The position numbers were made by a program, and so were the translations under genes. This document shows, one piece after another, positions 28,372 to 36,866 of a stretch of DNA of 64,000 nt. Positions within the stretch are counted from its first letter, which is position 1. Each line of letters opens with the position of its first letter. The DNA lies in the NCBI GenBank assembly GCA_043809585.1, contig JBDROZ010000073.1, positions 42,343 to 106,342 of the forward strand, given 5' to 3'. The stretch is from Candidatus Eiseniibacteriota bacterium (lineage in GTDB: Bacteria; Orphanbacterota; Orphanbacteria; Orphanbacterales; Orphanbacteraceae). Under the pieces are notes generated by a model, which had not been told where the DNA came from, made no database searches, and saw only the letters and a program-made list of their open reading frames with translations.

Positions 28372-31079
28372 CGTGCCTCCCCTCGGGACATGGAACGGCG
28401 GCCCCTTCCGGGGCCCTTCCGGTCGACAGAGTCTAAGAAAGAGAATGCGGTCTGGGCGCTCGCCCTCCTGCTTCTCTTCTTGCGGGGGGCGGGGTCTCTC
28501 CGGTCGGCGCGGACCGCCTCCGGACTATAGTCCCCGGCCTCCTCCTTGGCGATCGATCTCTTCTCGTCCTCCCGTTCCATGGTCATCCTTTCCTCCCGGC
28601 CACGGAAGACGCGGGCCAGTTCGAGAACGAGGGGGCGCGGAAAGCGCCGTGCCGCCAGGCGCTCGAGAAGGTCCGCGGTGCTCCGGAATTCCCCCCGGAT
28701 CTCCCGCTCCTCCTCGAACCGGGCGGCCCATTCCGCCGTCATTCCCCGTACGATCCCCAGTCCGGCCCTCACCCGGTCCCCTTCCCGCCGGAAGCGGTAG
28801 CAGCTCCGGTTCATATGGAGAGGGAGGAACGTGACGCCTTCCCGCCGGAGGCCGGCGGCGAGCCCCCGGGGGTCTTTCGCATCGATGATTCGGGCGGAGA
28901 GGGCGGCGGCCGCGAATCCGACCGGGTCCGCCCCTTTCCTCCGCGCCCCTTCGACGATTCTCCCGGCGACGGGCTCGAAGTCTCCGCGGCAAGGGGCGTC
29001 CGGCGCGAGGGCGAGCAAGAGGGAAAAGAAACGGGACACCACGGTCCCGTCCGCACCCCGGTCCGCCGCCTTTCGCAGGAAGAGGGCCCGCTCCCGGGCG
29101 AGGGAAGCCCCATCCTCCCCGGAGACCGCATCGAAGAGTCGTTCCGTTCGGCCGGCGTCGTATCCCGCGAAGTGGCGGACCACGGCGGCGAGCTGCTCCC
29201 GGAAGAAGGGGATCCCCCCCGTTTCCGCGAGAAATGCTCCCGACTCGGGGATCGTGAGAGGCGCGGGGCGATCACCGGAACGGACGGCGGCGATCCTCTC
29301 GAAGAGATCCATCCTCGTTCGCCGCTTCGCCCCGGTCGCCAAGAGCACGGCGAGGTCATTCACCGACTCCGGCGGGAGAATCCGGAGAAGATCACGGAAA
29401 GGGGGCATCCCGGAGGGAGCGAGCCCGGCCAGGGCGCCCCGCCGGATCAATTCCCAGGGACGGCCGCCTTCCTCGGACCCCCGGGCGAGATTCCGGGTCT
29501 CCCGGAGAACGCCGAGGAGGGAAGAATCGGAAACGCGAAGCAGTACGGCGGCGGAACCGGCCGGCCCGGTCGACAGGGCAAAATCCCAGAGACGGACCGG
29601 GTCCTCGGCCCATAGGAGGGTGCGGCGATCCCGGCGATAACCGGCGATCACACGTTCGAAGACCCGTCGCTCTCGAACCCCCGGAAGAGGAACCGGACCG
29701 CGGTTCCCCCGGTGGGTAACGCCGGAGGGGCTCGCGGTGGGTGGGTGTGGTTTCGGTCCGGTATCCTCTCCCGGGAGGGGACGCTCTTCCGCCTTCTCGA
29801 ACTCCGACGGGTCCGGCGTGTCGGGGATCAGCAGGGTCGCCGTCTCCCCCGGATGACGTTCTTCGACGAGCTTCCGGAGACGGGTCGCCGTCCGGCGATC
29901 GGCCTCCACTTGTAAGACCCGCGAACCGGCGGAGGAGAGCGGCGCCATCAAGTAACCCCGATCGATCGGATCCGTATCCTGGAGATCGAGCAGGTATCCG
30001 AGCAAACTCCCCGACAGGAAGGTCGTCATGATTTCCACGTCAGGTTCGGCGTTTCGAAGACTCCTAAAAAGCCGGGAAAGACGGATGGCGAACCGGTGGA
30101 GCCCCGCCCCCTCGATCCGCCAGAATTCGTCCCAGAACCGGCTCTCGATCTCCTTCCGGCGCGAGTGAAACCGGCCGCCGTACCTTTTCGCGAGGCGTTC
30201 GATGCAGAGGCGGATCAGCTCGTCCGTTTCCCGGCCGCCCGCGGGGGGGGACTCTTCCCATGCCGCGCCCCGGCACCGTTCGACGATCTCCGAAGTCGCG
30301 GCAAGCGCGTCCGGGGCGTCTTCGTAGCGCCGCTCCCACTCCTCCCTCGAAGGAAGATGGGCCGCGATTTCGTCGGCGAACGGATCGGTCGGGTCTTCCG
30401 AGGTCGAGGGCGGAACGGTTCGCATCACCCGCTCCCAGAGACGCCTCTCTCCGGCTTCGAGATAGCGGACCGGGTCCGCGGCGAGCCGACGGAGTCCGTG
30501 CCGCTCCGCGATCTCGCCGAGAAACGGTTCGACCAGACGCTCCCTCTCCGAACCGGCCCGGGTGGTTTCGAGGAAGAAGCGCTTCGCTCCGAAGCGCCCG
30601 GCGAGAAGTCGGGCGAGCCGGCGGGCGTCCCCCACCCGTCCTCGGGCGAAAGCGCCCGACACGGGTCCGGCCAGTCCACCGCTCCCGACGATCCAACCGT
30701 TCGCGGCGTCGGCGAATTCGTCCCACTCCGCGGCCCCCCGGATCCTCTCCGGGCGGTCGTCCCGCCAGATCTTCTCCAAGAGCCGGGAGAGCGCCTTCAT
30801 TCCCTCGGTCGATTCAGGAAAGACGGTGAGGACATAAGCGGGCGGAGGGAGACCGCCCCCGGGACGCGAAAACCGCACCACCACCTCCGCCCCGGCCACG
30901 AGAGCGATCCCCTCATCCTCGAATGACGCGCGGGCCTCCGCGAATCCGAAGAGCACCCCCCGGTCGACGATCGCCCCGCCGTCGTACCCGGCCCGTCTCA
31001 GGGCGGCGGCGAGATCGGCGGGCTCCACGATCGACCGGCGGGCCGAGTACCTTGTCTGGATTCGAAGAGGCGCGGGCAT
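28368..31079 (-). CDS. Degenerate DNA polymerase III alpha (DnaE)-like protein, catalytic motifs apparently lost
   Basis: DnaE-like landmarks in order: PHP-like start (QTRYS..AIVDRG..G), SGSLLGYLL...TDPI, ETGGIPFFREQ, LPLHMNRS, GLGIVRG, RGEFRS; ATG 31079 after GGAGGG. Confidence 0.75.
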   Translation of the reverse strand: MPAPLRIQTRYSARRSIVEPADLAAALRRAGYDGGAIVDRGVLFGFAEARASFEDEGIALVAGAEVVVRFSRPGGGLPPPAYVLTVFPESTEGMKALSRLLEKIWRDDRPERIRGAAEWDEFADAANGWIVGSGGLAGPVSGAFARGRVGDARRLARLLAGRFGAKRFFLETTRAGSERERLVEPFLGEIAERHGLRRLAADPVRYLEAGERRLWERVMRTVPPSTSEDPTDPFADEIAAHLPSREEWERRYEDAPDALAATSEIVERCRGAAWEESPPAGGRETDELIRLCIERLAKRYGGRFHSRRKEIESRFWDEFWRIEGAGLHRFAIRLSRLFRSLRNAEPDVEIMTTFLSGSLLGYLLDLQDTDPIDRGYLMAPLSSAGSRVLQVEADRRTATRLRKLVEERHPGETATLLIPDTPDPSEFEKAEERPLPGEDTGPKPHPPTASPSGVTHRGNRGPVPLPGVRERRVFERVIAGYRRDRRTLLWAEDPVRLWDFALSTGPAGSAAVLLRVSDSSLLGVLRETRNLARGSEEGGRPWELIRRGALAGLAPSGMPPFRDLLRILPPESVNDLAVLLATGAKRRTRMDLFERIAAVRSGDRPAPLTIPESGAFLAETGGIPFFREQLAAVVRHFAGYDAGRTERLFDAVSGEDGASLARERALFLRKAADRGADGTVVSRFFSLLLALAPDAPCRGDFEPVAGRIVEGARRKGADPVGFAAAALSARIIDAKDPRGLAAGLRREGVTFLPLHMNRSCYRFRREGDRVRAGLGIVRGMTAEWAARFEEEREIRGEFRSTADLLERLAARRFPRPLVLELARVFRGREERMTMEREDEKRSIAKEEAGDYSPEAVRADRRDPAPRKKRSRRASAQTAFSFLDSVDRKGPGRGRRSMSRGEAR

Positions 31080-31102
31080 CACGGTCGTTCCCTCCACGGG
31101 CG

Positions 31103-31152
31103 GTTCACAGACTACTGAACAAAAGATACTAGACATTTGTTTCCGGCGTCAA
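31103..31152 (-). promoter_or_regulatory. Promoter of the dnaE-like/lexA operon with candidate LexA operators
   Basis: TTGACG-N18-TATCTT; AAAC-AAAT-GTCT within the spacer; GTTCA-N8-TGAAC palindrome just downstream. Confidence 0.55.
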
Positions 31153-31346
31153 GAGGAAAAAGGGGGGGAGAGGAGGAAATGGATCTAACTCCATGTAATT
31201 CAGGTGGTTTTGGGAGCAGACCGAGGCCCTGGTGCCGGCTTCGGTATCGAAAGGAAGGAGGGGAACCGGTCCCGTCTTCATCGGAGGGGGGAATCGGGGG
31301 GCGGGAACGGAGAGGGATCGACGCCCCGTCCCTGCTCATTCTCGCC

Positions 31347-31383
31347 AAAGAAGACGCCCGGGGGCGGTCCCCCCGGGCGTTCA
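31347..31383 (-). terminator. Intrinsic terminator after the sulfotransferase gene
   Basis: ACGCCCGGGGG/CCCCCGGGCGT stem followed by CTTCTTT on the minus strand. Confidence 0.6.
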
Positions 31384-31406
31384 AGTTCATTCGAGCGAGA
31401 CGGCTC

Positions 31407-32030
31407 TTACGACTTCGCCTCCGCCCGGTTCCGGTAGAGGTTCCGGTCGGCGACGGACGCCATCTTTTCGACATCGAGGCTTGTACCGAGGAAGTCGCGG
31501 ATCTTCTCCGCGTTCCCCTTCGGGTCCTCGAGGACGCCCGTGTAGTCGACGAAGAGGACATCCATGTTGGGACGGCGCTCCATGAGGGAGAAGACCTGTT
31601 TCAGATGGTCCTGGTAAATCTCCCTCATCTTATCGTCGGGCGTCTCGTTCGCCTCTTTCCGGTGGTCGAGCATCTTGTTTTGCGAGGCGAGCACTTCGTC
31701 GAGATGGCGGCGCATGAAGACGATCTTGTAGTGATTCTCGTCGGGCAAATCCTTGATGAGGAAAGAGATCACCTTGAGGGCCCTGCCCCGGGCGTCCTTC
31801 ACCCACGCCTTGTCCGCCATCTTGTGCAGGTCCTTGACCCGCTCGTCCTCGTAGTACCCCTTCGGGTTGTCCACGTCCGCCGTGCGGATGCCGTCGATGA
31901 TCTGGCTCATGCCGCCCGCGTCGAGCATCTTCATCGCCAGGGAAGTGCCCGAGCGCGGGAGCCCGGACACGATCACGACCGGCTCGCCCCTGGACGAGAA
32001 CGAATCCTTCAGCTTCTTCAAGAGAGACAT
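31407..32030 (-). CDS. Sulfotransferase-family (P-loop) protein
   Basis: VSGLPRSGTS, DNPKGYYE, FMRR..EVLASQ. Confidence 0.88.
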   Translation of the reverse strand: MSLLKKLKDSFSSRGEPVVIVSGLPRSGTSLAMKMLDAGGMSQIIDGIRTADVDNPKGYYEDERVKDLHKMADKAWVKDARGRALKVISFLIKDLPDENHYKIVFMRRHLDEVLASQNKMLDHRKEANETPDDKMREIYQDHLKQVFSLMERRPNMDVLFVDYTGVLEDPKGNAEKIRDFLGTSLDVEKMASVADRNLYRNRAEAKS

Positions 32031-32210
32031 CTCGATCTTCCTCTTCGTCAAAGGCCCTCGGTCCCCGGCGGCCCTTCCTCACGAAGGGGGAATCGGGGCC
32101 GCATCTCATGAGACCAAGAGGATACCATTCGGCCCCCCTCCTGCCAAGGATCGCCCGGCGGGGGTAGTGGGATATTTTGATTCCCCTCCGACTCATGGGA
32201 GAGAATTGGT

Positions 32211-33092
32211 ATGATAAATAACAGGTCACTTCCGATAGCCCAATGGAGCCTCTTTGACCTAGGGGATCTCTTGAAGAGATTCGATCCAGAAATGCTCGCG
32301 AGCGCGGTGTCCCTAGAAGCCATTGTTCACGGCATGTTGCTGAACCATGCCCCAGGAGACCATTGGCATAAACTACGGAATACTATGTTTGGCACGGCGA
32401 AGTCTTGTGCTGATGCCGGACTATCGGTCACTTCAAGGACAATTGTCAACGCTATCCGCTTGCTTGACGATGGCTTAATAGACGGAATTCCCGGAGCACT
32501 CGCCGGACTTCGGAGAACCGTATGTTCCGAGTGCCAAGACCATCTATTCATCAAGATAACCAACGGGCGAGAGAGGTTTTACGATGATGCGGCCAAAGAG
32601 ATCAGGACCGAGATATTAGAGACGTTTCCAGATACCGGAGAAGAGATTCGGGCCGCCGGAAGATGTTACGCCCTAGAAGAGCCGGCGGCCTGTGTCTTTC
32701 ACCTAATGCGTGCCGTAGAGCCCGGCCTTGAAGCACTAGCAAAGCACGTTCTGGACCCCAGAGAGTACGCAGAAATCAAAGACTCGGTGTGGGGAACAGT
32801 CATCAAGAAGGTCGAGAAGGAGATACAGGGCAGAATTGGAGCAGCCAAGAAGAACGAAGAACGAAGGGCGCTGGCTCCATACGCGGCTTTGGCGTCTCAG
32901 TTCCGGTATTTCAAGGATGCTTGGAGAAACTTGGCCTCTCACAAAATCGTGCAGTTCTCAGACAGAAAGGCAAAGACGGTCTTTGATGCCGTTCTTGGAT
33001 TCCTGAATGAACTCCCGGAAATACCGGGAATCTGCTTGACAGATAGCCCCGATATGTCCGATAAAGACCGTTCGCCCGAAACGCCCCTGTAA
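32211..33092 (+). CDS. IS passenger: putative HEPN-domain protein
   Basis: Helical protein with EI..A..C......AC.FHLMRAVE and an Rx4H motif (WRNLASH). Confidence 0.7.
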   Translation: MINNRSLPIAQWSLFDLGDLLKRFDPEMLASAVSLEAIVHGMLLNHAPGDHWHKLRNTMFGTAKSCADAGLSVTSRTIVNAIRLLDDGLIDGIPGALAGLRRTVCSECQDHLFIKITNGRERFYDDAAKEIRTEILETFPDTGEEIRAAGRCYALEEPAACVFHLMRAVEPGLEALAKHVLDPREYAEIKDSVWGTVIKKVEKEIQGRIGAAKKNEERRALAPYAALASQFRYFKDAWRNLASHKIVQFSDRKAKTVFDAVLGFLNELPEIPGICLTDSPDMSDKDRSPETPL

Positions 33093-33155
33093 ATCAACGG
33101 ATAGAGGGCCGGAATACTACTCCGGCAAATCCCGGTTCGACTCCGGGTAGGGGCT
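33083..33155 (+). ncRNA. tRNA-like cloverleaf (Arg-like body, anticodon ACT, weak D-stem, no CCA)
   Basis: GCCCCTG/TAGGGGC acceptor; D-loop AACGGATA; CCGGA-ATACTAC-TCCGG; CCCGG-TTCGACT-CCGGG; canonical 73-nt spacing. Confidence 0.75.
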
Positions 33156-33234
33156 AGAAAAGAAAAGGGGTGCCTGGTGCGGTAACACCCGACACCCCAC
33201 AACCCCGACGGCCCGTGCAAGACCGTGGTCGGGA

Positions 33235-33291
33235 TTGAGCCGTAAGGCCGACCTCAGTATAACACTCTTGCGCGGGCTCCGGTAGGAGCCC
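33235..33291 (+). promoter_or_regulatory. Transposase promoter and SD-sequestering hairpin
   Basis: TTGAGC-N17-TATAAC; GGGCTCC-GGTA-GGAGCCC stem buries the GGAG SD just before the ATG. Confidence 0.6.
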
Positions 33292-33294
33292 AAG

Positions 33295-34119
33295 ATGAAC
33301 GTCCTAAAATCCGAGAAACAACTTGCCGTAATCTCTGCCCTGGTCGAAGGAAACTCTGTCCGGTCCGTCTCTCGAATGACCGGGGTCCACAAGGCGACGA
33401 TCCTCAAACTCCTAGTCCGGGTCGGGGAGAATTGTCAGGAAATCCACAACGACAGTATGTGGAATCTCTCGTTTGAGGCCATAGAGGCCGACGAGATTTG
33501 GACCTTCGTCCGGAAGAAGCAACGGCAACTCACCCGGTCCGAGCGGAGAAACCCCGATATTGGGGATCAATACTGCTTTGTGGCGCTCGACCCTGTTTCC
33601 AAGTTGATCCCGGCCTATACCATCGGGAAACGGAACATGGAAACTACTCTTGCGTTCGTCCACGAATTGCGGGCGAGAACGCGGGGGCGGCTCCAAATCA
33701 GTACAGACGGCTTTGAGCCCTATGTAGACGCCGTGGAACGGGCTTTCGGGGCAGAGGCCGACTATGCCCAAATCATCAAGGCCTATTCCTCCGAATGGGC
33801 CGGAAGGGGAAGGTATGCCCCGCCCAAGATTTCAGAGGTCCAGGTCACCCCGATTTCGGGGACGCCGAAAAGGGATCGGGTCTGCACATCCTATGTGGAG
33901 CGGCAAAACCTGACGATGCGGATGCAAATGAGGAGGTTTACGAGACTTACCAATGCGTTCTCGAAGAAGATCGAGAACCTACGGGCGGCCCTTGCCTTGC
34001 ACTTCGCCCATTATAACTTTTGCAGGATTCACAAGACCTTGTGGGTTACTCCCGCCATGGCGGCGGGGGTTACGGATAGGCTTTGGTCAGTAGAAGACCT
34101 AATCATTCCTCAGGCGTGA
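33295..34119 (+). CDS. IS1-family DDE transposase (single ORF)
   Basis: N-terminal HTH ([16 protein letters not shown]); [41 protein letters not shown]. Confidence 0.93.
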
Positions 34120-34858
34120 CTGTAAGCGGGCTTTGTCTGTTCGGTCTGCTTACAACAAAGGTCTTTTCGTGTTTTCCGGCACCATCCCCAATGGCGGAAA
34201 CAGTAAGGCGATACTCTCCAAAACTAAGTCTGCTCCGCACCCCATTCCCCCGCTCGGTATGGAGAATCCATATCCCATTCCCCTCACCGGGGCGATCCGA
34301 CAGCACAAGGCCAAATCGCCTATAGTCCTCGGCTACAAACTCGAAGACCTTTGCCGGCGAGTGTACGTTGTCATGAACCTCTTGGAGTGGAAGCGGAAGA
34401 GTAAGAGTGTCAATCGGTTTGTCAATACCTACCAATCGAATCCGGGCACCGCCTATCTTCTTCTTCCCGCCGTTCGCAACCTCGATCTCAAACATCGTGC
34501 CATTTTGAATAGCGACAAAGGGATCAATTAGATCGTGGTAGATGTTCGGATGTGATTCGTATACATCCCCTATCTTCAATAGAGTCTCCGGCTTCCCTAT
34601 GAAATTTCCCAAGAACCAGATAACTCCATTAGTGGCCCAAACCACGCCAACAAAGGCCACAAGAGCAAGGACAGCAACGACAGGGCCGGGAAGATTGGCC
34701 ATGGAAGCCCAAATTGCCGCAGATGAGGCAGCAATCATCCCGACAATCGTCCCAAGAACATCCTTGGTGGAAACCACGGACCCGGGGAGCGTGACGATAT
34801 GAATGATCTGCCAAATACGCCCGACCACTCGCTTGACATTGTGGGTGGAGTCTCCCAT
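34103..34858 (-). CDS. IS passenger: membrane protein of unknown function
   Basis: 251-aa ORF inside the right TIR, two N-terminal hydrophobic helices plus a beta-rich domain; overlaps the transposase 3' end convergently. Confidence 0.7.
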
Positions 34859-35019
34859 CCCCCCATTCTATCTCTCACGGCCACCCCCTCAAATCAAAAT
34901 GTCCCACTACCCCGGCGGGGCGGTTCGCCTGAGCCCATTTCGGGGGGGACGGGAAGGGGTGGAATTGGTAGGCTGCGGGAGGAGTCTTGGCCATGATTCC
35001 CCGAACCCGAGGAGACGAC

Positions 35020-36866
35020 ATGGCTTCTGGAGGAGCGATCCGGTTCTTTCTCTCCATGCTTCTCGTCGCTCTGCTCGCCGCGCCGCCCGCGCACGCCCTT
35101 CCCCGCGCGCGGGAGAAGTGGATCGAAGTCCGCACCGAAAATTTCTTTCTCTTCAGCGACGCCCGCGAGAAGGACGTTCGAGAGATCGGTCTCAATCTCG
35201 AGCGTCTCCGATTTTGTCTCCAGGTCATGTTCCGGACCATGCGGGTCAATTCGCCCCATCCCACTTACATCTACGTCTTCAAGGACAATGATTCGTTTCG
35301 GCGGTACATCGAATCCGTCGATCCCGATTACCCGACGCTCGGCGCTTTCCTGGAACGGTCGGACGGGAACTACGTCGTCGTCGACCGCCGGGCCGGCCTC
35401 GCATCCACTCGGGTCGTCTACCACGAGTACCTCCACTACTTCGTGCACAACAACGTGAACGTGCCGCTTCCGGTCTGGCTGGACGAGGGGCTCGCCGACT
35501 ACTACAGCTCCTTCCAGGTCGAGGGAAACGAACTGGACGCCGGCATGCCGCTCCCCTGGGCCATCTCCCTGCTCCGGGCGGAATCGCCGATGCCGCTCGA
35601 GAGCCTCTTCGAGGTTGACCGTTCCTCGCCCGTCTACCACGGCGGAAAGGAGCGGGGCGTCTTCTACGCCCAGTCGTGGGCCCTCACTCATCTGCTTCTC
35701 ACCCAGCCCGACCGGGAGAAGAAAGTCGCGCGGTTCCTTGAATTGTTGCACGAAGGGAAGCCCGCGACCGCCTCCATCTGCGAGGCATTTCAAGTCTCGC
35801 GGGGGGCCTCGAGAAGGCCCTGGAGGAGTATCTATGGAAGCCCGGTTACAAGTACATCACGCTCACCTTCGACGACATCCCGATCGAGGAGGAGGCGGCC
35901 GTCCGGAAGATGACGCCGGGCGAGGTCCTTTACCGCCTCGGAGACCTGCTCGCCCACATCGGCCCGGAGCGGCGGGAAGAGGCGGAGTCTCACTTCAGAA
36001 AAGCGATCGAGGAGAACGAAAACAACGCGGGCGCCCTCGCCGGAATGGGCAACCTCCTGATCCAGGGGGCGGAATTCGATCAAGCGGCGCCCTTCCTGGA
36101 GCGGTCCGTGGCGATGGACGACGAGAACTACATGACCCATTACTATCTCGCGTCGAATCAGTGGGGACTGTTTCGGCGGGCGGAGGAGGACGACTCCCCG
36201 ACGTCGCGCCGTCTGCTCGAGTCGGCCCGGGAGCACTACCTGCGATCGATGGTATTGAATCCTCACTTCGCCTCCTCCTTCCAGGGATACGGGATCACAT
36301 TCCTGTTCGAGGAGGAGGGGGGCGACTTCACTCTGGGAATCCAGGCGATGCTCCGCGCGCGCATGCTGAAGCCGACCGACTCGAACCTGGCCTACGAGCT
36401 CTTCCTGCTCTATCTGAAGGCCGGCGAGGTGGACGCGGCGAAGGACCTGGAAGAGACGTTCCTCCGTCGCGCCTTCGACGAGGCGCTCGCGGAGCGGGCC
36501 TGGGAAGCCCTCCTTCGGTACCGCCTGGACGAAGCGAGCGAGCTCTTCCAGAAGGGCGACCTCGAGGAGGGACTCACGGTCATCGAAGAGGTGATGGTGA
36601 GCACGGGCGACGAACCGTTCCGGGAGGAATTGAATCGGAGGGCGGTGGAGGTCCGCGCACTCATCCGGAACAACCGGGCCGTCGATCTGTACAACCGCGC
36701 GGTCGACGCGGCGAAGGAACGCGACTACGCGCTCGCGGAGAAGTTCCTCTCCGAGGCTCTCGAGTTCGTCGTCGACCCGGATCTTCGCCTCCAGGCGGAG
36801 GACTTCCGGGGCAACATGAGGGAACTGCAGGGGCTCCCGAGGGAGTCGCCGGCGATCTCCCGGTGA
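35020..36866 (+). pseudogene. Secreted HExxH (DUF1570-like) + TPR protein split by a frameshift in a G6 run (possibly a sequencing error)
   Basis: W.EVRT.NF, HEYLH..WLDEGLADY, FYAQSW; one extra G at 35801-35806 joins ORF 34987-35913 to the TPR ORF 35910-36866. Confidence 0.8.

What the first reader, a model, noticed from the sequence alone, without database searches (positions are those of the whole stretch)
33083..33155. tRNA-like RNA with an ACU anticodon fused to the stop codon of a HEPN cargo gene inside an IS
Seen: a 73-nt cloverleaf with canonical spacing, paired acceptor (7 bp, one G.U), anticodon (5 bp, 7-nt loop AUACUAC) and T arms (UUCGACU). The D-stem has two A.G mismatches and there is no CCA. 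Its first 10 nt overlap the end of the Rx4H gene, including its TAA. The D-loop AACGGAUA carries A20 and the anticodon has C35/U36, which are Arg identity elements, but ACU would read Ser AGU, and A34 is very rare in bacteria outside tRNA-Arg(ACG). Established: many HEPN RNases cleave tRNA. Inference: a co-transcribed tRNA mimic acting as decoy, antitoxin or sensor for the HEPN protein (an RNA-regulated toxin/defence module on an IS), or an RNase P/Z processing signal separating cargo from transposase transcripts.
Basis: partly seen in the sequence, partly recalled or inferred. Interest (0 to 1): 0.85.

Follow-up and report, generated by a model that had tools for sequence, protein, structure and literature searches.

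The report
Odd tRNA gene inside an insertion sequence
A real but atypical tRNA-shaped gene sits just upstream of the transposase gene of a cargo-carrying IS1-type insertion sequence, and related insertion sequences carry similar tRNA-like elements there without the neighbouring HEPN gene, so it goes with the transposase rather than the HEPN protein.

Summary
The 73-nt cloverleaf at 33083-33155 is real: ARAGORN calls a tRNA with anticodon ACU, and Rfam tRNA scores 43.2 bits against a cut-off of 29. It lies inside a 2749-bp IS1-family element (32163-34911) with 19/20 terminal inverted repeats and an 8-bp target duplication, present once in the genome.

Of 160 related IS1-type loci, 41 carry a tRNA or tRNA-like element upstream of tnp, and all but one other (L048) are on the tnp strand. 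Six sequences of the window's type are each nearest to tRNA-Arg, and three lineages have ACU. They keep the cloverleaf through compensatory changes (94% paired; 12 of 21 pairs changed on both sides).

The HEPN-like gene family occurs in only 1 of the 160 loci, and that locus has no tRNA-like element. The overlap with the stop codon is a run-on of the ORF into U8-A9-A10.

The HEPN decoy or antitoxin reading is therefore not supported. The best reading is a tRNA-shaped RNA co-transcribed with tnp and cut out by tRNA-processing enzymes, standing where sister elements have the tnp promoter. A decoding, possibly mistranslating, tRNA is not excluded. No expression data exist.

The parts
32155..32162 (.). 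Left copy of the 8-bp target-site duplication, CCGGCGGG
   Evidence: Read. The same 8 bp follows the right end. Related elements also show 8-bp duplications.
32163..32182 (+). Left terminal inverted repeat of the IS (starts GGTAGTG)
   Evidence: One search reports inverted-repeat pair I1 (31 nt, 90%), which includes the part-palindromic duplication. Trimmed to 20 nt it matches the right end 19/20. The same GGTAGTG... ends occur in 44 of 80 related genome loci.
32211..33092 (+). Passenger gene ORF1, 293 aa, HEPN-like (RNxxxH at 239-244), with a C-terminal run-on into the tRNA
   Evidence: The protein itself has no Pfam hit, but 21 of 50 homologues hit PF05168.
33036..33065 (+). Candidate promoter: TTGACA, 18 nt, GATAAA. 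Inference only.
   Evidence: Read. It was not reported by the scan, which requires T at position 6 of the -10 hexamer. It is not conserved in L003 or L025.
33083..33155 (+). tRNA-shaped gene with anticodon ACU, a tRNA-Arg-like body, a weak D stem and no CCA
33167..33198 (+). First hairpin of the tnp leader. It starts 12 nt after the tRNA 3' end, and a C-rich stretch follows it.
   Evidence: Fold. Homologous hairpin plus ACACCCC.CAACCCC in L003, L084, L085 and L096.
33274..33291 (+). 7-bp hairpin GGGCUCC-GGUA-GGAGCCC. Its 3' arm holds the SD-like GGAG, 6-9 nt before the tnp AUG.
   Evidence: Read. Function is inferred.
33295..34119 (+). IS1-family transposase gene, 274 aa
   Evidence: PF03400: E 1.5e-6, 29.1 bits against a cut-off of 24.1. 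NF033558 IS1 transposase: 64 bits, below its cut-off of 100. More than 570 relatives in each of two collections.
34103..34858 (-). Passenger ORF3, 251 aa, hydrophobic by eye, with no family match
   Evidence: No relative in the 160 loci.
34892..34911 (-). Right terminal inverted repeat
34912..34919 (.). Right copy of the target-site duplication, CCGGCGGG

Best explanation
The 73-nt element is a tRNA-Arg-derived, tRNA-shaped RNA gene that belongs to the transposase side of a cargo-carrying IS1-family insertion sequence. It is most likely transcribed on the same RNA as tnp. The host's tRNA-processing enzymes would then cut it out: RNase P at 33083, and a 3' endonuclease just after 33155. That would separate the upstream passenger message from the tnp message and give the tnp mRNA a defined 5' end 12 nt before its first leader hairpin. 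This is the same place where sister elements start their tnp transcript from a promoter of their own. Shown here: the tRNA shape, its conservation with compensatory changes, its position and strand, and its independence from the HEPN gene. Inferred: co-transcription, cleavage, and any effect on transposase level. Whether the released RNA is also charged and decodes is left open.
For: (1) The cloverleaf is real.

(2) Six sequences of this type (window, L003, L025, L100, L096, L013; L025 and L100 are near-identical, so about five lineages) keep the cloverleaf. 94.4% of cells are paired against 73.7% in shuffles. 12 of 21 pairs changed on both sides. The covariation score is 0.613 against 0.197, reached by 0 of 500 shuffles, and slid registers give at most 0.171.

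(3) Place and strand. With default ARAGORN on 161 sequences, 14 of 31 tRNAs lie within 1 kb upstream of tnp on its strand, 2 on the other strand there, and 15 elsewhere. 41 of 160 related loci have such an element, and all 24 whose IS ends are known have it inside the IS.

(4) What is kept is what processing enzymes need, the acceptor stem and T arm. Decoding parts decay: two mismatched D-stem pairs in the window, a 16-nt D-loop insert in L003, a 6-nt anticodon loop in L096, C at position 33 in L013, and no true D arm in the 67-72-nt form.

(5) No terminator-like site lies between ORF1, the tRNA and tnp on the + strand, and no promoter-like site was reported between the tRNA and tnp.

(6) In the sister elements L084, L085 and L096 a strong promoter (TTGACA-17-TATACT or CATACT, 10-11 of 12) ends 16-17 nt before the homologous leader hairpin. 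In the window and in L003 the tRNA 3' end stands at that place.

(7) The IS's own genes barely use AGU (0, 2 and 1 codons), so supplying a rare tRNA for itself is not supported.
Against: There are no RNA data. No RNA run holds the locus, so neither co-transcription nor cleavage has been seen.

The anticodon ACU is shared by three diverged lineages (window, L003, L025/L100). UAU is shared by four diverged Ser-like tRNAs in another clade. This points to selection on the anticodon, which a pure processing signal does not need.

One Ser-like UAU tRNA (L048) lies on the opposite strand inside its IS. In L084 and L096 a divergent ORF and a promoter separate the tRNA from tnp. In some relatives, therefore, the tRNA is an independent gene and not part of the tnp leader.

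The window copy has the weakest D stem and scores below the other 43 matches of 49 bits or more in its genome, so it may be decaying.

The sample of loci is the best 80 of more than 570 relatives in each collection, so it is biased towards the window's transposase.
Confidence: 0.45

Rival explanations
1. It is a working decoder tRNA carried as cargo, as phages carry tRNAs. Either it reads AGU faithfully, or, because its body looks like tRNA-Arg while ACU pairs with the Ser codon AGU, it mistranslates a rare codon.
For: The loop has 7 nt with U33 and A37, G18-G19 are present and the T loop is canonical. ACU is kept in three diverged lineages. All class A sequences are nearest to tRNA-Arg(CCU/UCU) among the host's 45 other tRNAs, and the D loop ends GGAUA as the host's tRNA-Arg genes do. 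That A20, C35 and U36 are ArgRS identity elements is recalled knowledge. Other IS-borne tRNAs also pair one body with another anticodon: a Ser-like class II body with UAU in L109, L114, L148/L154 and L048, and a Leu-like body with UUA in L084. The codons they would read are among the rarest in the host: AGT 1.9, ATA 1.9 and TGT 1.5 per 1000. Natural A34 tRNAs with mismatched identity exist (tRNAProX, PMC10404621, passages read). Phage class II tRNA-Ser(ACU) genes exist: 21 of 29 pattern hits in viral contigs.
Against: AGT codons in the transposases of ACU-bearing elements sit at columns where relatives have Ser or Thr (for example 142 of 157 Ser). ATA codons sit at Ile/Val columns. There is thus no sign of recoding, and mischarged tRNAs would damage the element's own transposase. 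The short variable loop rules out ordinary bacterial Ser identity (recalled). Two lineages of the same tRNA type have loops unfit for decoding. The window D stem has only two standard pairs. The IS genes hardly use AGU.
Confidence: 0.25
2. In this copy it is a decaying relic with no present function, inherited from an ancestor in which the tRNA mattered.
For: It scores 43.2 bits, below the other 43 matches of 49 bits or more in the genome. It has two A.G mismatches in the D stem, no CCA, and a U discriminator where the five relatives have A. Close transposase relatives (L083, L085, L160) lack any tRNA. The element is single-copy.
Against: The acceptor, anticodon and T stems are perfect or G.U paired. 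The family shows compensatory change, which means selection on the fold. The transposase ORF, both inverted repeats and the target duplication are intact, so the element is young.
Confidence: 0.2
3. One reading: a tRNA mimic that acts as decoy, antitoxin or sensor for the HEPN-like ORF1 protein.
For: ORF1 belongs to a family with an invariant RNxxxH motif, and 21 of 50 members hit Pfam HEPN. ORF1 and the tRNA are adjacent and overlap by 10 nt. That many HEPN RNases cut tRNA is recalled knowledge.
Against: The gene family and the tRNA co-occur only in the window. The family is in 1 of 160 related loci (L014), which has no tRNA-like element. 41 loci have tRNA-like elements without it. 8 of 9 viral loci with ORF1 relatives have no tRNA within 1.5 kb. 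The overlap is explained by a run-on of the ORF. There is no PADLOC match.
Confidence: 0.05

Closest known systems
tRNA genes carried by mobile elements (phage and plasmid tRNA sets)
   Same: A tRNA-shaped gene on a mobile element of lower G+C than its host (about 52% against 65-70%), with an anticodon for an A/U-rich codon. Phage class II tRNA-Ser(ACU) genes were found here.
   Different: The carrier is a 2.7-kb insertion sequence, not a phage. The body is class I and Arg-like, not Ser-like. The gene is fixed just upstream of tnp on its strand. The element's own genes hardly use the codon.
tRNA-mRNA co-transcripts and tRNA-like processing signals (bacterial tRNA-tufB type operons; the mascRNA at the MALAT1 3' end). 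Recalled; Rfam RF01684 gave weak hits to the short form.
   Same: A tRNA fold between two messages on one strand with no terminator. The acceptor and T arms are kept while the other arms vary.
   Different: No processing has been shown here. The setting, an IS between passenger gene and transposase gene, has not been described in the papers I could search.
tRNAProX, natural mistranslating bacterial tRNAs with A34 (PMC10404621; passages read)
   Same: A34 anticodon joined to a body whose likeness points to a different amino acid.
   Different: tRNAProX has A33, G21 and A15:A48 and often a dedicated ProRSx. The window tRNA has U33 and an Arg-like body. No synthetase is linked to it. Charging is untested.
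tmRNA tRNA-like domain and viral 3' tRNA-like structures
   Same: The 67-72-nt form in related IS (not the window's) matches both ends of the Rfam tmRNA model: 41.1 and 34.1 bits, below the cut-off of 47. It shows G3:U70, A73 and, in some copies, an encoded CCA.
   Different: It has no mRNA-like domain, lies in a 5' leader and carries an invariant UACA loop. The window's element is a full cloverleaf and is not matched by that model at E<=0.01.
IS1 family insertion sequences with passenger genes (ISfinder's single-ORF and long IS1 subgroups; recalled)
   Same: DDE transposase with an IS1 Pfam match, ends starting GGT, and 8-bp target duplication.
   Different: No RNA gene or tRNA-like leader is part of the family description as I recall it. 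A search for the subgroup name ISMhu11 found no paper.

Membership tests
tRNA (Rfam RF00005) | Cloverleaf scoring above the curated gathering score | tested here: met
   43.2 bits against 29, model positions 1-71. ARAGORN also calls it.
tRNA (Rfam RF00005) | All four stems made of standard pairs | tested here: not met
   The D stem has two non-standard A.G pairs (NC line 'vv'). The other three stems pair fully.
tRNA (Rfam RF00005) | Fold kept by compensatory changes in homologues | tested here: met
   94.4% paired, 12 of 21 pairs changed on both sides, 0 of 500 shuffles as high (6 sequences, about 5 lineages).
tRNA (Rfam RF00005) | Anticodon and body that agree on one amino acid | tested here: inconclusive
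   ACU pairs with Ser AGU. The body is class I and nearest to the host's tRNA-Arg(CCU) at 52/73. The identity rules are recalled, not tested.
tRNA (Rfam RF00005) | Expressed, processed and aminoacylated | not testable with these tools
   No RNA run holds the locus.
IS1 family insertion sequence | IS1-type DDE transposase | tested here: met
   PF03400 at 29.1 bits against a cut-off of 24.1. NF033558 at 64 bits is below its cut-off of 100, so it is a distant member.
IS1 family insertion sequence | Terminal inverted repeats and 8-9-bp target duplication | tested here: met
   19/20 inverted repeats and the duplication CCGGCGGG. The same ends and 8-bp duplications occur in relatives.
HEPN domain (PF05168), for ORF1 | Rx4-6H motif | tested here: met
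   R239, N240 and H244 are invariant in 50 sequences.
HEPN domain (PF05168), for ORF1 | Profile match of the protein itself | tested here: not met
   0 Pfam families at E<=0.1. 21 of 50 homologues do match, best E 1.1e-5.
HEPN domain (PF05168), for ORF1 | HEPN fold | tested here: inconclusive
   The model has pLDDT 87.3. Foldseek against the PDB gave nothing below E 0.1; Csx1 and Csm6 chains appear only at E of about 1.
RNA-regulated toxin module (toxin plus cognate RNA) | RNA and toxin gene travel together in homologous loci | tested here: not met
   They co-occur only in the window. 1 of 160 loci has the gene and it lacks the RNA. 8 of 9 viral loci have the gene without a tRNA.
tRNA-like processing signal within a polycistronic RNA | Intact acceptor and T arms, same strand as flanking genes, no terminator between them | tested here: met
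tRNA-like processing signal within a polycistronic RNA | RNase P/Z-dependent cleavage products | not testable with these tools
   No RNA data.

The most novel reading that the evidence does not exclude
A clade of IS1-family insertion sequences carries tRNAs whose body and anticodon disagree: an Arg-like body with ACU, Ser-like bodies with UAU, a Leu-like body with the ochre anticodon UUA, and G3:U70 mini-tRNAs with a UACA loop. On this reading these tRNAs are charged and deliberately misread rare codons or a stop codon. That would make an insertion sequence a mobile modifier of the genetic code, or a self-limiting brake on its own transposase.
Probability: 0.12. Interest if true: 0.85.

Novelty: new variant of a known kind. 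Interest (0 to 1): 0.6.

Why it matters
Insertion sequences are thought of as a transposase gene between two repeats, sometimes with protein-coding passengers. Here about a quarter of a sampled IS1 clade, spread over several phyla, carries a tRNA or tRNA-like RNA at one fixed place upstream of tnp. The fold is kept by compensatory change and the anticodons are odd.

If the RNA is a processing signal, this is a new way for an IS to uncouple transposase expression from passenger or outside transcription. It would be a bacterial counterpart of tRNA punctuation.

If the RNAs are charged, they would be mobile, identity-mismatched tRNAs. Either outcome can be tested with standard RNA end-mapping and transposition assays.

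The result also removes a tempting but unsupported link between a HEPN protein and a neighbouring tRNA mimic.

Tried and rejected
- **RNA evidence.** No RNA holder is listed for the locus.
- **DNA contigs.** Laying the DNA contigs of three runs gave only short low-depth pieces. There was no joint and no empty site, so it says nothing about mobility.
- **Relatives in the phylum.** The window's phylum has only 10 genomes in the collection, and none but its own holds the tRNA plus leader.
- **Fold search for ORF1.** Nothing significant.
- **PADLOC and NCBIfam for ORF1 and ORF3.** Nothing.
- **Consensus fold of the tnp leader.** Seven elements aligned too poorly and gave 0 pairs. The leader homology I cite is by eye.
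- **Recoding test.** AGT, ATA and TGT codons in transposases lie at Ser/Thr, Ile/Val and Cys/Ser columns, so recoding is rejected.
- **Rare tRNA for the IS's own genes.** Rejected.
- **Host tRNA gaps.** ARAGORN and Infernal find no tRNA-Arg(ACG) or tRNA-Ser(GCU). CGY, CGA and AGC codons are common, so I take this as assembly gaps and not as a role for the IS tRNA.
- **Anticodon-loop pairing.** Pairing of the loop with the leader or the IS ends gave a 5-nt match in the window and a 7-nt match in L025 but none in L003. I judged this to be chance.
- **First minihelix script.** It was mis-indexed and was replaced.
- **Class B model against the window.** It does not match the window's tRNA at E<=0.01.
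- **Literature.** Six searches found no description of tRNA-like elements in IS1-type elements. Motif-catalogue papers were seen only as search listings, and their supplements were not opened.
Full report

Yes. ARAGORN reports two tRNAs in the window: a tRNA-Glu at 1161-1238, and a 73-nt tRNA with anticodon ACT at exactly 33083-33155 on the + strand. Rfam's tRNA model matches the same bases end to end at 43.2 bits (gathering score 29, E 5.4e-7). It is the only Rfam match at E<=1 in 31000-35500.

The alignment shows a 7-bp acceptor stem with one G.U, a 5-bp anticodon stem, the loop AUACUAC, a 5-bp T stem and the loop UUCGACU. Two D-stem pairs are non-standard, there is no CCA, and the discriminator is U. 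The ORF 32211-33092 ends in TAA at 33090-33092, inside the first 10 nt of the tRNA.

In a whole-genome scan the element is one of 46 matches. Its 43.2 bits is lower than the other 43 matches, which score 49 bits or more. It is therefore real but atypical.

**2. The setting is a bona fide insertion sequence.**

G+C falls from 0.64-0.71 to about 0.51-0.58 between roughly 32150 and 34850. An inverted-repeat pair lies at 32152-32182 and 34892-34922.

Read against the sequence, the ends are 20-nt repeats starting GGTAGTG at 32163-32182 and 34892-34911, matching 19/20. They are flanked by a direct 8-bp duplication, CCGGCGGG. The element is 2749 bp long. It holds:
- ORF1 (293 aa, + strand);
- the tRNA;
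- a 274-aa transposase with an IS1 Pfam match (PF03400, 29.1 bits against a cut-off of 24.1; NF033558 at 64 bits, below its cut-off);
- ORF3 (251 aa, - strand).

It occurs once in the 4.24-Mb assembly. None of the other 9 genomes held for the phylum has the tRNA plus leader.

**3. Relatives.**

The transposase has more than 570 confirmed relatives in each of two collections. The best 80 of each were fetched (L003-L082; L083-L162), at 50-62% identity.

Near-identical ends (GGTAGTGTCCTAATTTG) with 8-bp duplications bound elements of 2-5 kb in 44 of the 80 genome loci, and in 76 of all 160 loci. This is a clade of IS1-type elements with passenger genes, found in MAGs labelled Methylomirabilia, Nitrospirota, Desulfobacterota-like, Aminicenantes, Acidobacteriota, Bacteroidota and others.

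**4. tRNA-like elements recur upstream of tnp.**

With default ARAGORN on the 160 loci plus the window, 31 tRNAs are found. Of these, 14 lie within 1 kb upstream of tnp on its strand, 2 on the opposite strand there, and 15 elsewhere. Pooling ARAGORN, a profile search and a covariance model gives 41 of 160 loci with at least one such element. All 24 whose IS ends I could place have it inside the IS. There are four forms.

- **Form A, the window's type.** A class I tRNA in the window, L003 (Rfam 41.7 bits, with a 16-nt D-loop insert), L025 (64 bits) and its near-twin L100, all with anticodon ACU. Relatives with aberrant loops occur in L096 (46.2 bits, 6-nt loop) and L013 (43.4 bits, C33). Each is nearest to tRNA-Arg(CCU/UCU) among the host's 45 other tRNAs.
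- **Form B.** A 67-72-nt mini tRNA-like element ending 22-69 nt before the tnp AUG, in 27-28 loci, always on the + strand. It has G3:U70, A73 and an invariant UACA in a 9-nt loop. Rfam sees only weak likeness to the two ends of tmRNA or to mascRNA.
- **Form C.** Ser-like class II tRNAs with UAU in a Bacteroidota/Ignavibacteria clade, at 50-54 bits. One of them, in L048, is on the opposite strand.
- **Form D.** Others, including a Leu-like tRNA with UUA in L084 at 52.8 bits.

On a FastTree of 158 transposases, form B marks 27 of 39 rows of one starred clade and form C lies in another clade. The window groups with L003, next to L083-L085 and L096. A 54-row Acidobacteria clade has none (many forks are weakly supported).

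**5. Covariation.**

For form A, I imposed the cloverleaf on a MAFFT alignment of six sequences. L025 and L100 are near-identical, so there are about five lineages.
- 94.4% of cells pair, against 73.7% in shuffles.
- 12 of 21 pairs changed on both sides.
- The covariation score is 0.613 against 0.197, reached by 0 of 500 shuffles.
- Slid registers give at most 0.171.

For form B, on 28 model-aligned sequences, 88% of cells pair against 73%, and the score is 0.341 against 0.092, reached by 0 of 500 shuffles. That alignment was fitted to the model, and its acceptor register is partly off.

The fold is under selection in this family.

**6. The HEPN link.**

ORF1 has 304 homologues. In an alignment of 50 that I chose from the top of the list, R239, N240 and H244 are invariant, and 21 of the 50 hit Pfam HEPN. 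ORF1 itself hits nothing, and the fold search was uninformative. 'HEPN-like' is thus reasonable.

The gene does not travel with the tRNA, however.
- A profile of the family hits 1 of 160 loci, L014. There a minus-strand ORF, not a tRNA, lies between it and tnp.
- Of 9 viral contigs with relatives, 8 have no tRNA within 1.5 kb.
- In many other elements the gene before the tRNA-like element is instead a small coiled-coil protein with a winged-helix domain (HARE-HTH, WH_Rok).

The overlap with the stop codon is incidental. 43 of 49 homologues end at ORF1 residues 270-278. The window's ORF runs on through a low-confidence tail until U8-A9-A10 of the tRNA reads TAA. That most tRNAs read UAG or UAA at positions 8-10 in one frame is recalled knowledge.

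**7. What it most likely does.**

Several observations bear on this.
- The acceptor and T arms are always intact, while the D and anticodon regions decay in several lineages (section 4).
- The elements share the strand of tnp in all but one case.
- In the window no terminator-like site separates ORF1, the tRNA and tnp, and no promoter-like site was reported between the tRNA and tnp.
- In the sister elements L084, L085 and L096 a strong promoter (10-11 of 12 consensus positions) ends 16-17 nt before the first leader hairpin. In the window and in L003 the tRNA 3' end stands at that spot, 12 nt before the homologous hairpin.

I therefore favour a tRNA-shaped RNA co-transcribed with tnp and released by RNase P and a 3' endonuclease. 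This would separate the passenger and tnp messages and set the 5' end of the tnp leader. A candidate promoter (TTGACA, 18 nt, GATAAA at 33036-33065) and a 7-bp hairpin that holds the SD-like GGAG just before the AUG are read directly from the sequence. Both are unverified. I put this reading at about 0.45.

**8. Rivals.**

A decoding role is not excluded (0.25). The window's loop is fit for decoding. ACU is shared by three diverged lineages and UAU by four Ser-like tRNAs. One UAU tRNA is on the opposite strand, and so is an independent gene.

Body and anticodon disagree in every form, as in the mistranslating tRNAProX family (PMC10404621, passages read). The codons concerned are among the host's rarest. 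This fits either purposeful misreading or selection for the least harmful anticodon.

Against recoding: AGT and ATA codons in the elements' own transposases sit at Ser/Thr and Ile/Val columns, and the IS genes use AGT 0, 2 and 1 times.

The window copy may also simply be decaying (0.2). The HEPN decoy reading I put at 0.05.

**9. Novelty and limits.**

Six full-text searches found no account of tRNA or tRNA-like elements in IS1-type elements. Rfam 15 has no family for form B. Supplements of motif surveys were not seen.

There are no expression data, and the DNA contigs were uninformative. The loci are a sample biased towards the window's transposase. One search covered 100 of the 161 sequences, leaving out mostly the clade without profile hits. 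Identity rules for ArgRS, SerRS and AlaRS are recalled, not tested.

**Verdict.** This is a new variant of a known kind, with interest 0.6.

Noticed in passing
L004:3881-3950, L013:3882-3951, L063:3887-3960 and about 25 further loci: A 67-72-nt mini tRNA-like element lies 22-69 nt upstream of the tnp AUG in 27-28 related IS. It has G3:U70, A73, a D-like hairpin around an invariant GG, and a 9-nt loop with invariant UACA. It shows strong covariation and has no Rfam family. It looks like an undescribed RNA motif.
   Followed up: partly
L004:3740-3880, L009, L013, L086 (upstream of the mini tRNA-like element): Between a consensus promoter and the mini tRNA-like element lies a conserved stretch: an SD-like AGGAGG, then AUGAGAAGAG, then a hairpin whose loop (GAAUCGCC) can pair with a downstream GGCGAUUC. 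This may be a pseudoknot. The apparent short ORF is not conserved in length.
   Followed up: no
L109:1254-1343, L114:2494-2581, L148:2773-2862, L154:1809-1898, L048:3339-3426 (- strand): Ser-like class II tRNAs (G73, long variable arm) with anticodon UAU sit inside IS of a Bacteroidota/Ignavibacteria clade. Their transposase genes have two adjacent ATA codons and a third four codons later, around residues 177-184.
   Followed up: partly
L084:2432-2512; L096:2327-2402 and 2407-2491: L084 has a Leu-like tRNA with anticodon UUA (ochre-suppressor type). L096 has a tandem pair: an Arg-like tRNA with a 6-nt loop, and a second UUA tRNA seen by ARAGORN only and not by Rfam at E<=0.1.
   Followed up: partly
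L167-L190 (viral contigs): 21 of 29 hits to the ACU anticodon-arm pattern in IMG/VR are class II tRNA-Ser(ACU) genes with CCA, lying in phage tRNA clusters. A34 serine tRNAs are therefore not rare in phages.
   Followed up: partly
whole genome G000: Neither ARAGORN nor Infernal finds tRNA-Arg(ACG) or tRNA-Ser(GCU), although CGT+CGC+CGA make up 63 and AGC 9 codons per 1000. This is probably an assembly gap (123 contigs, 97.5% complete).
   Followed up: partly
G000:C73:4005-4075 (outside the window): A weak tRNA-like match (29.2 bits) lies 175 nt upstream of a tRNA-Pro. ARAGORN does not call it.
   Followed up: no
L003:3298-3723, L011:3232-3612, L013:3271-3765, L025:3178-3681, L109:785-1171: A small gene with a coiled-coil and a winged-helix domain (HARE-HTH or WH_Rok in two of them) recurs just before the tRNA-like element. 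It is absent from the window.
   Followed up: partly
L199:2780-2854: ARAGORN reports an odd tRNA-like call with a 2-nt anticodon, about 800 nt downstream of an ORF1-family HEPN-like gene in a viral contig.
   Followed up: no
window 34270-34291: An internal 22-nt stretch, 82% complementary to the left IS end, lies inside ORF3. It may be chance or the relic of an older right end.
   Followed up: no
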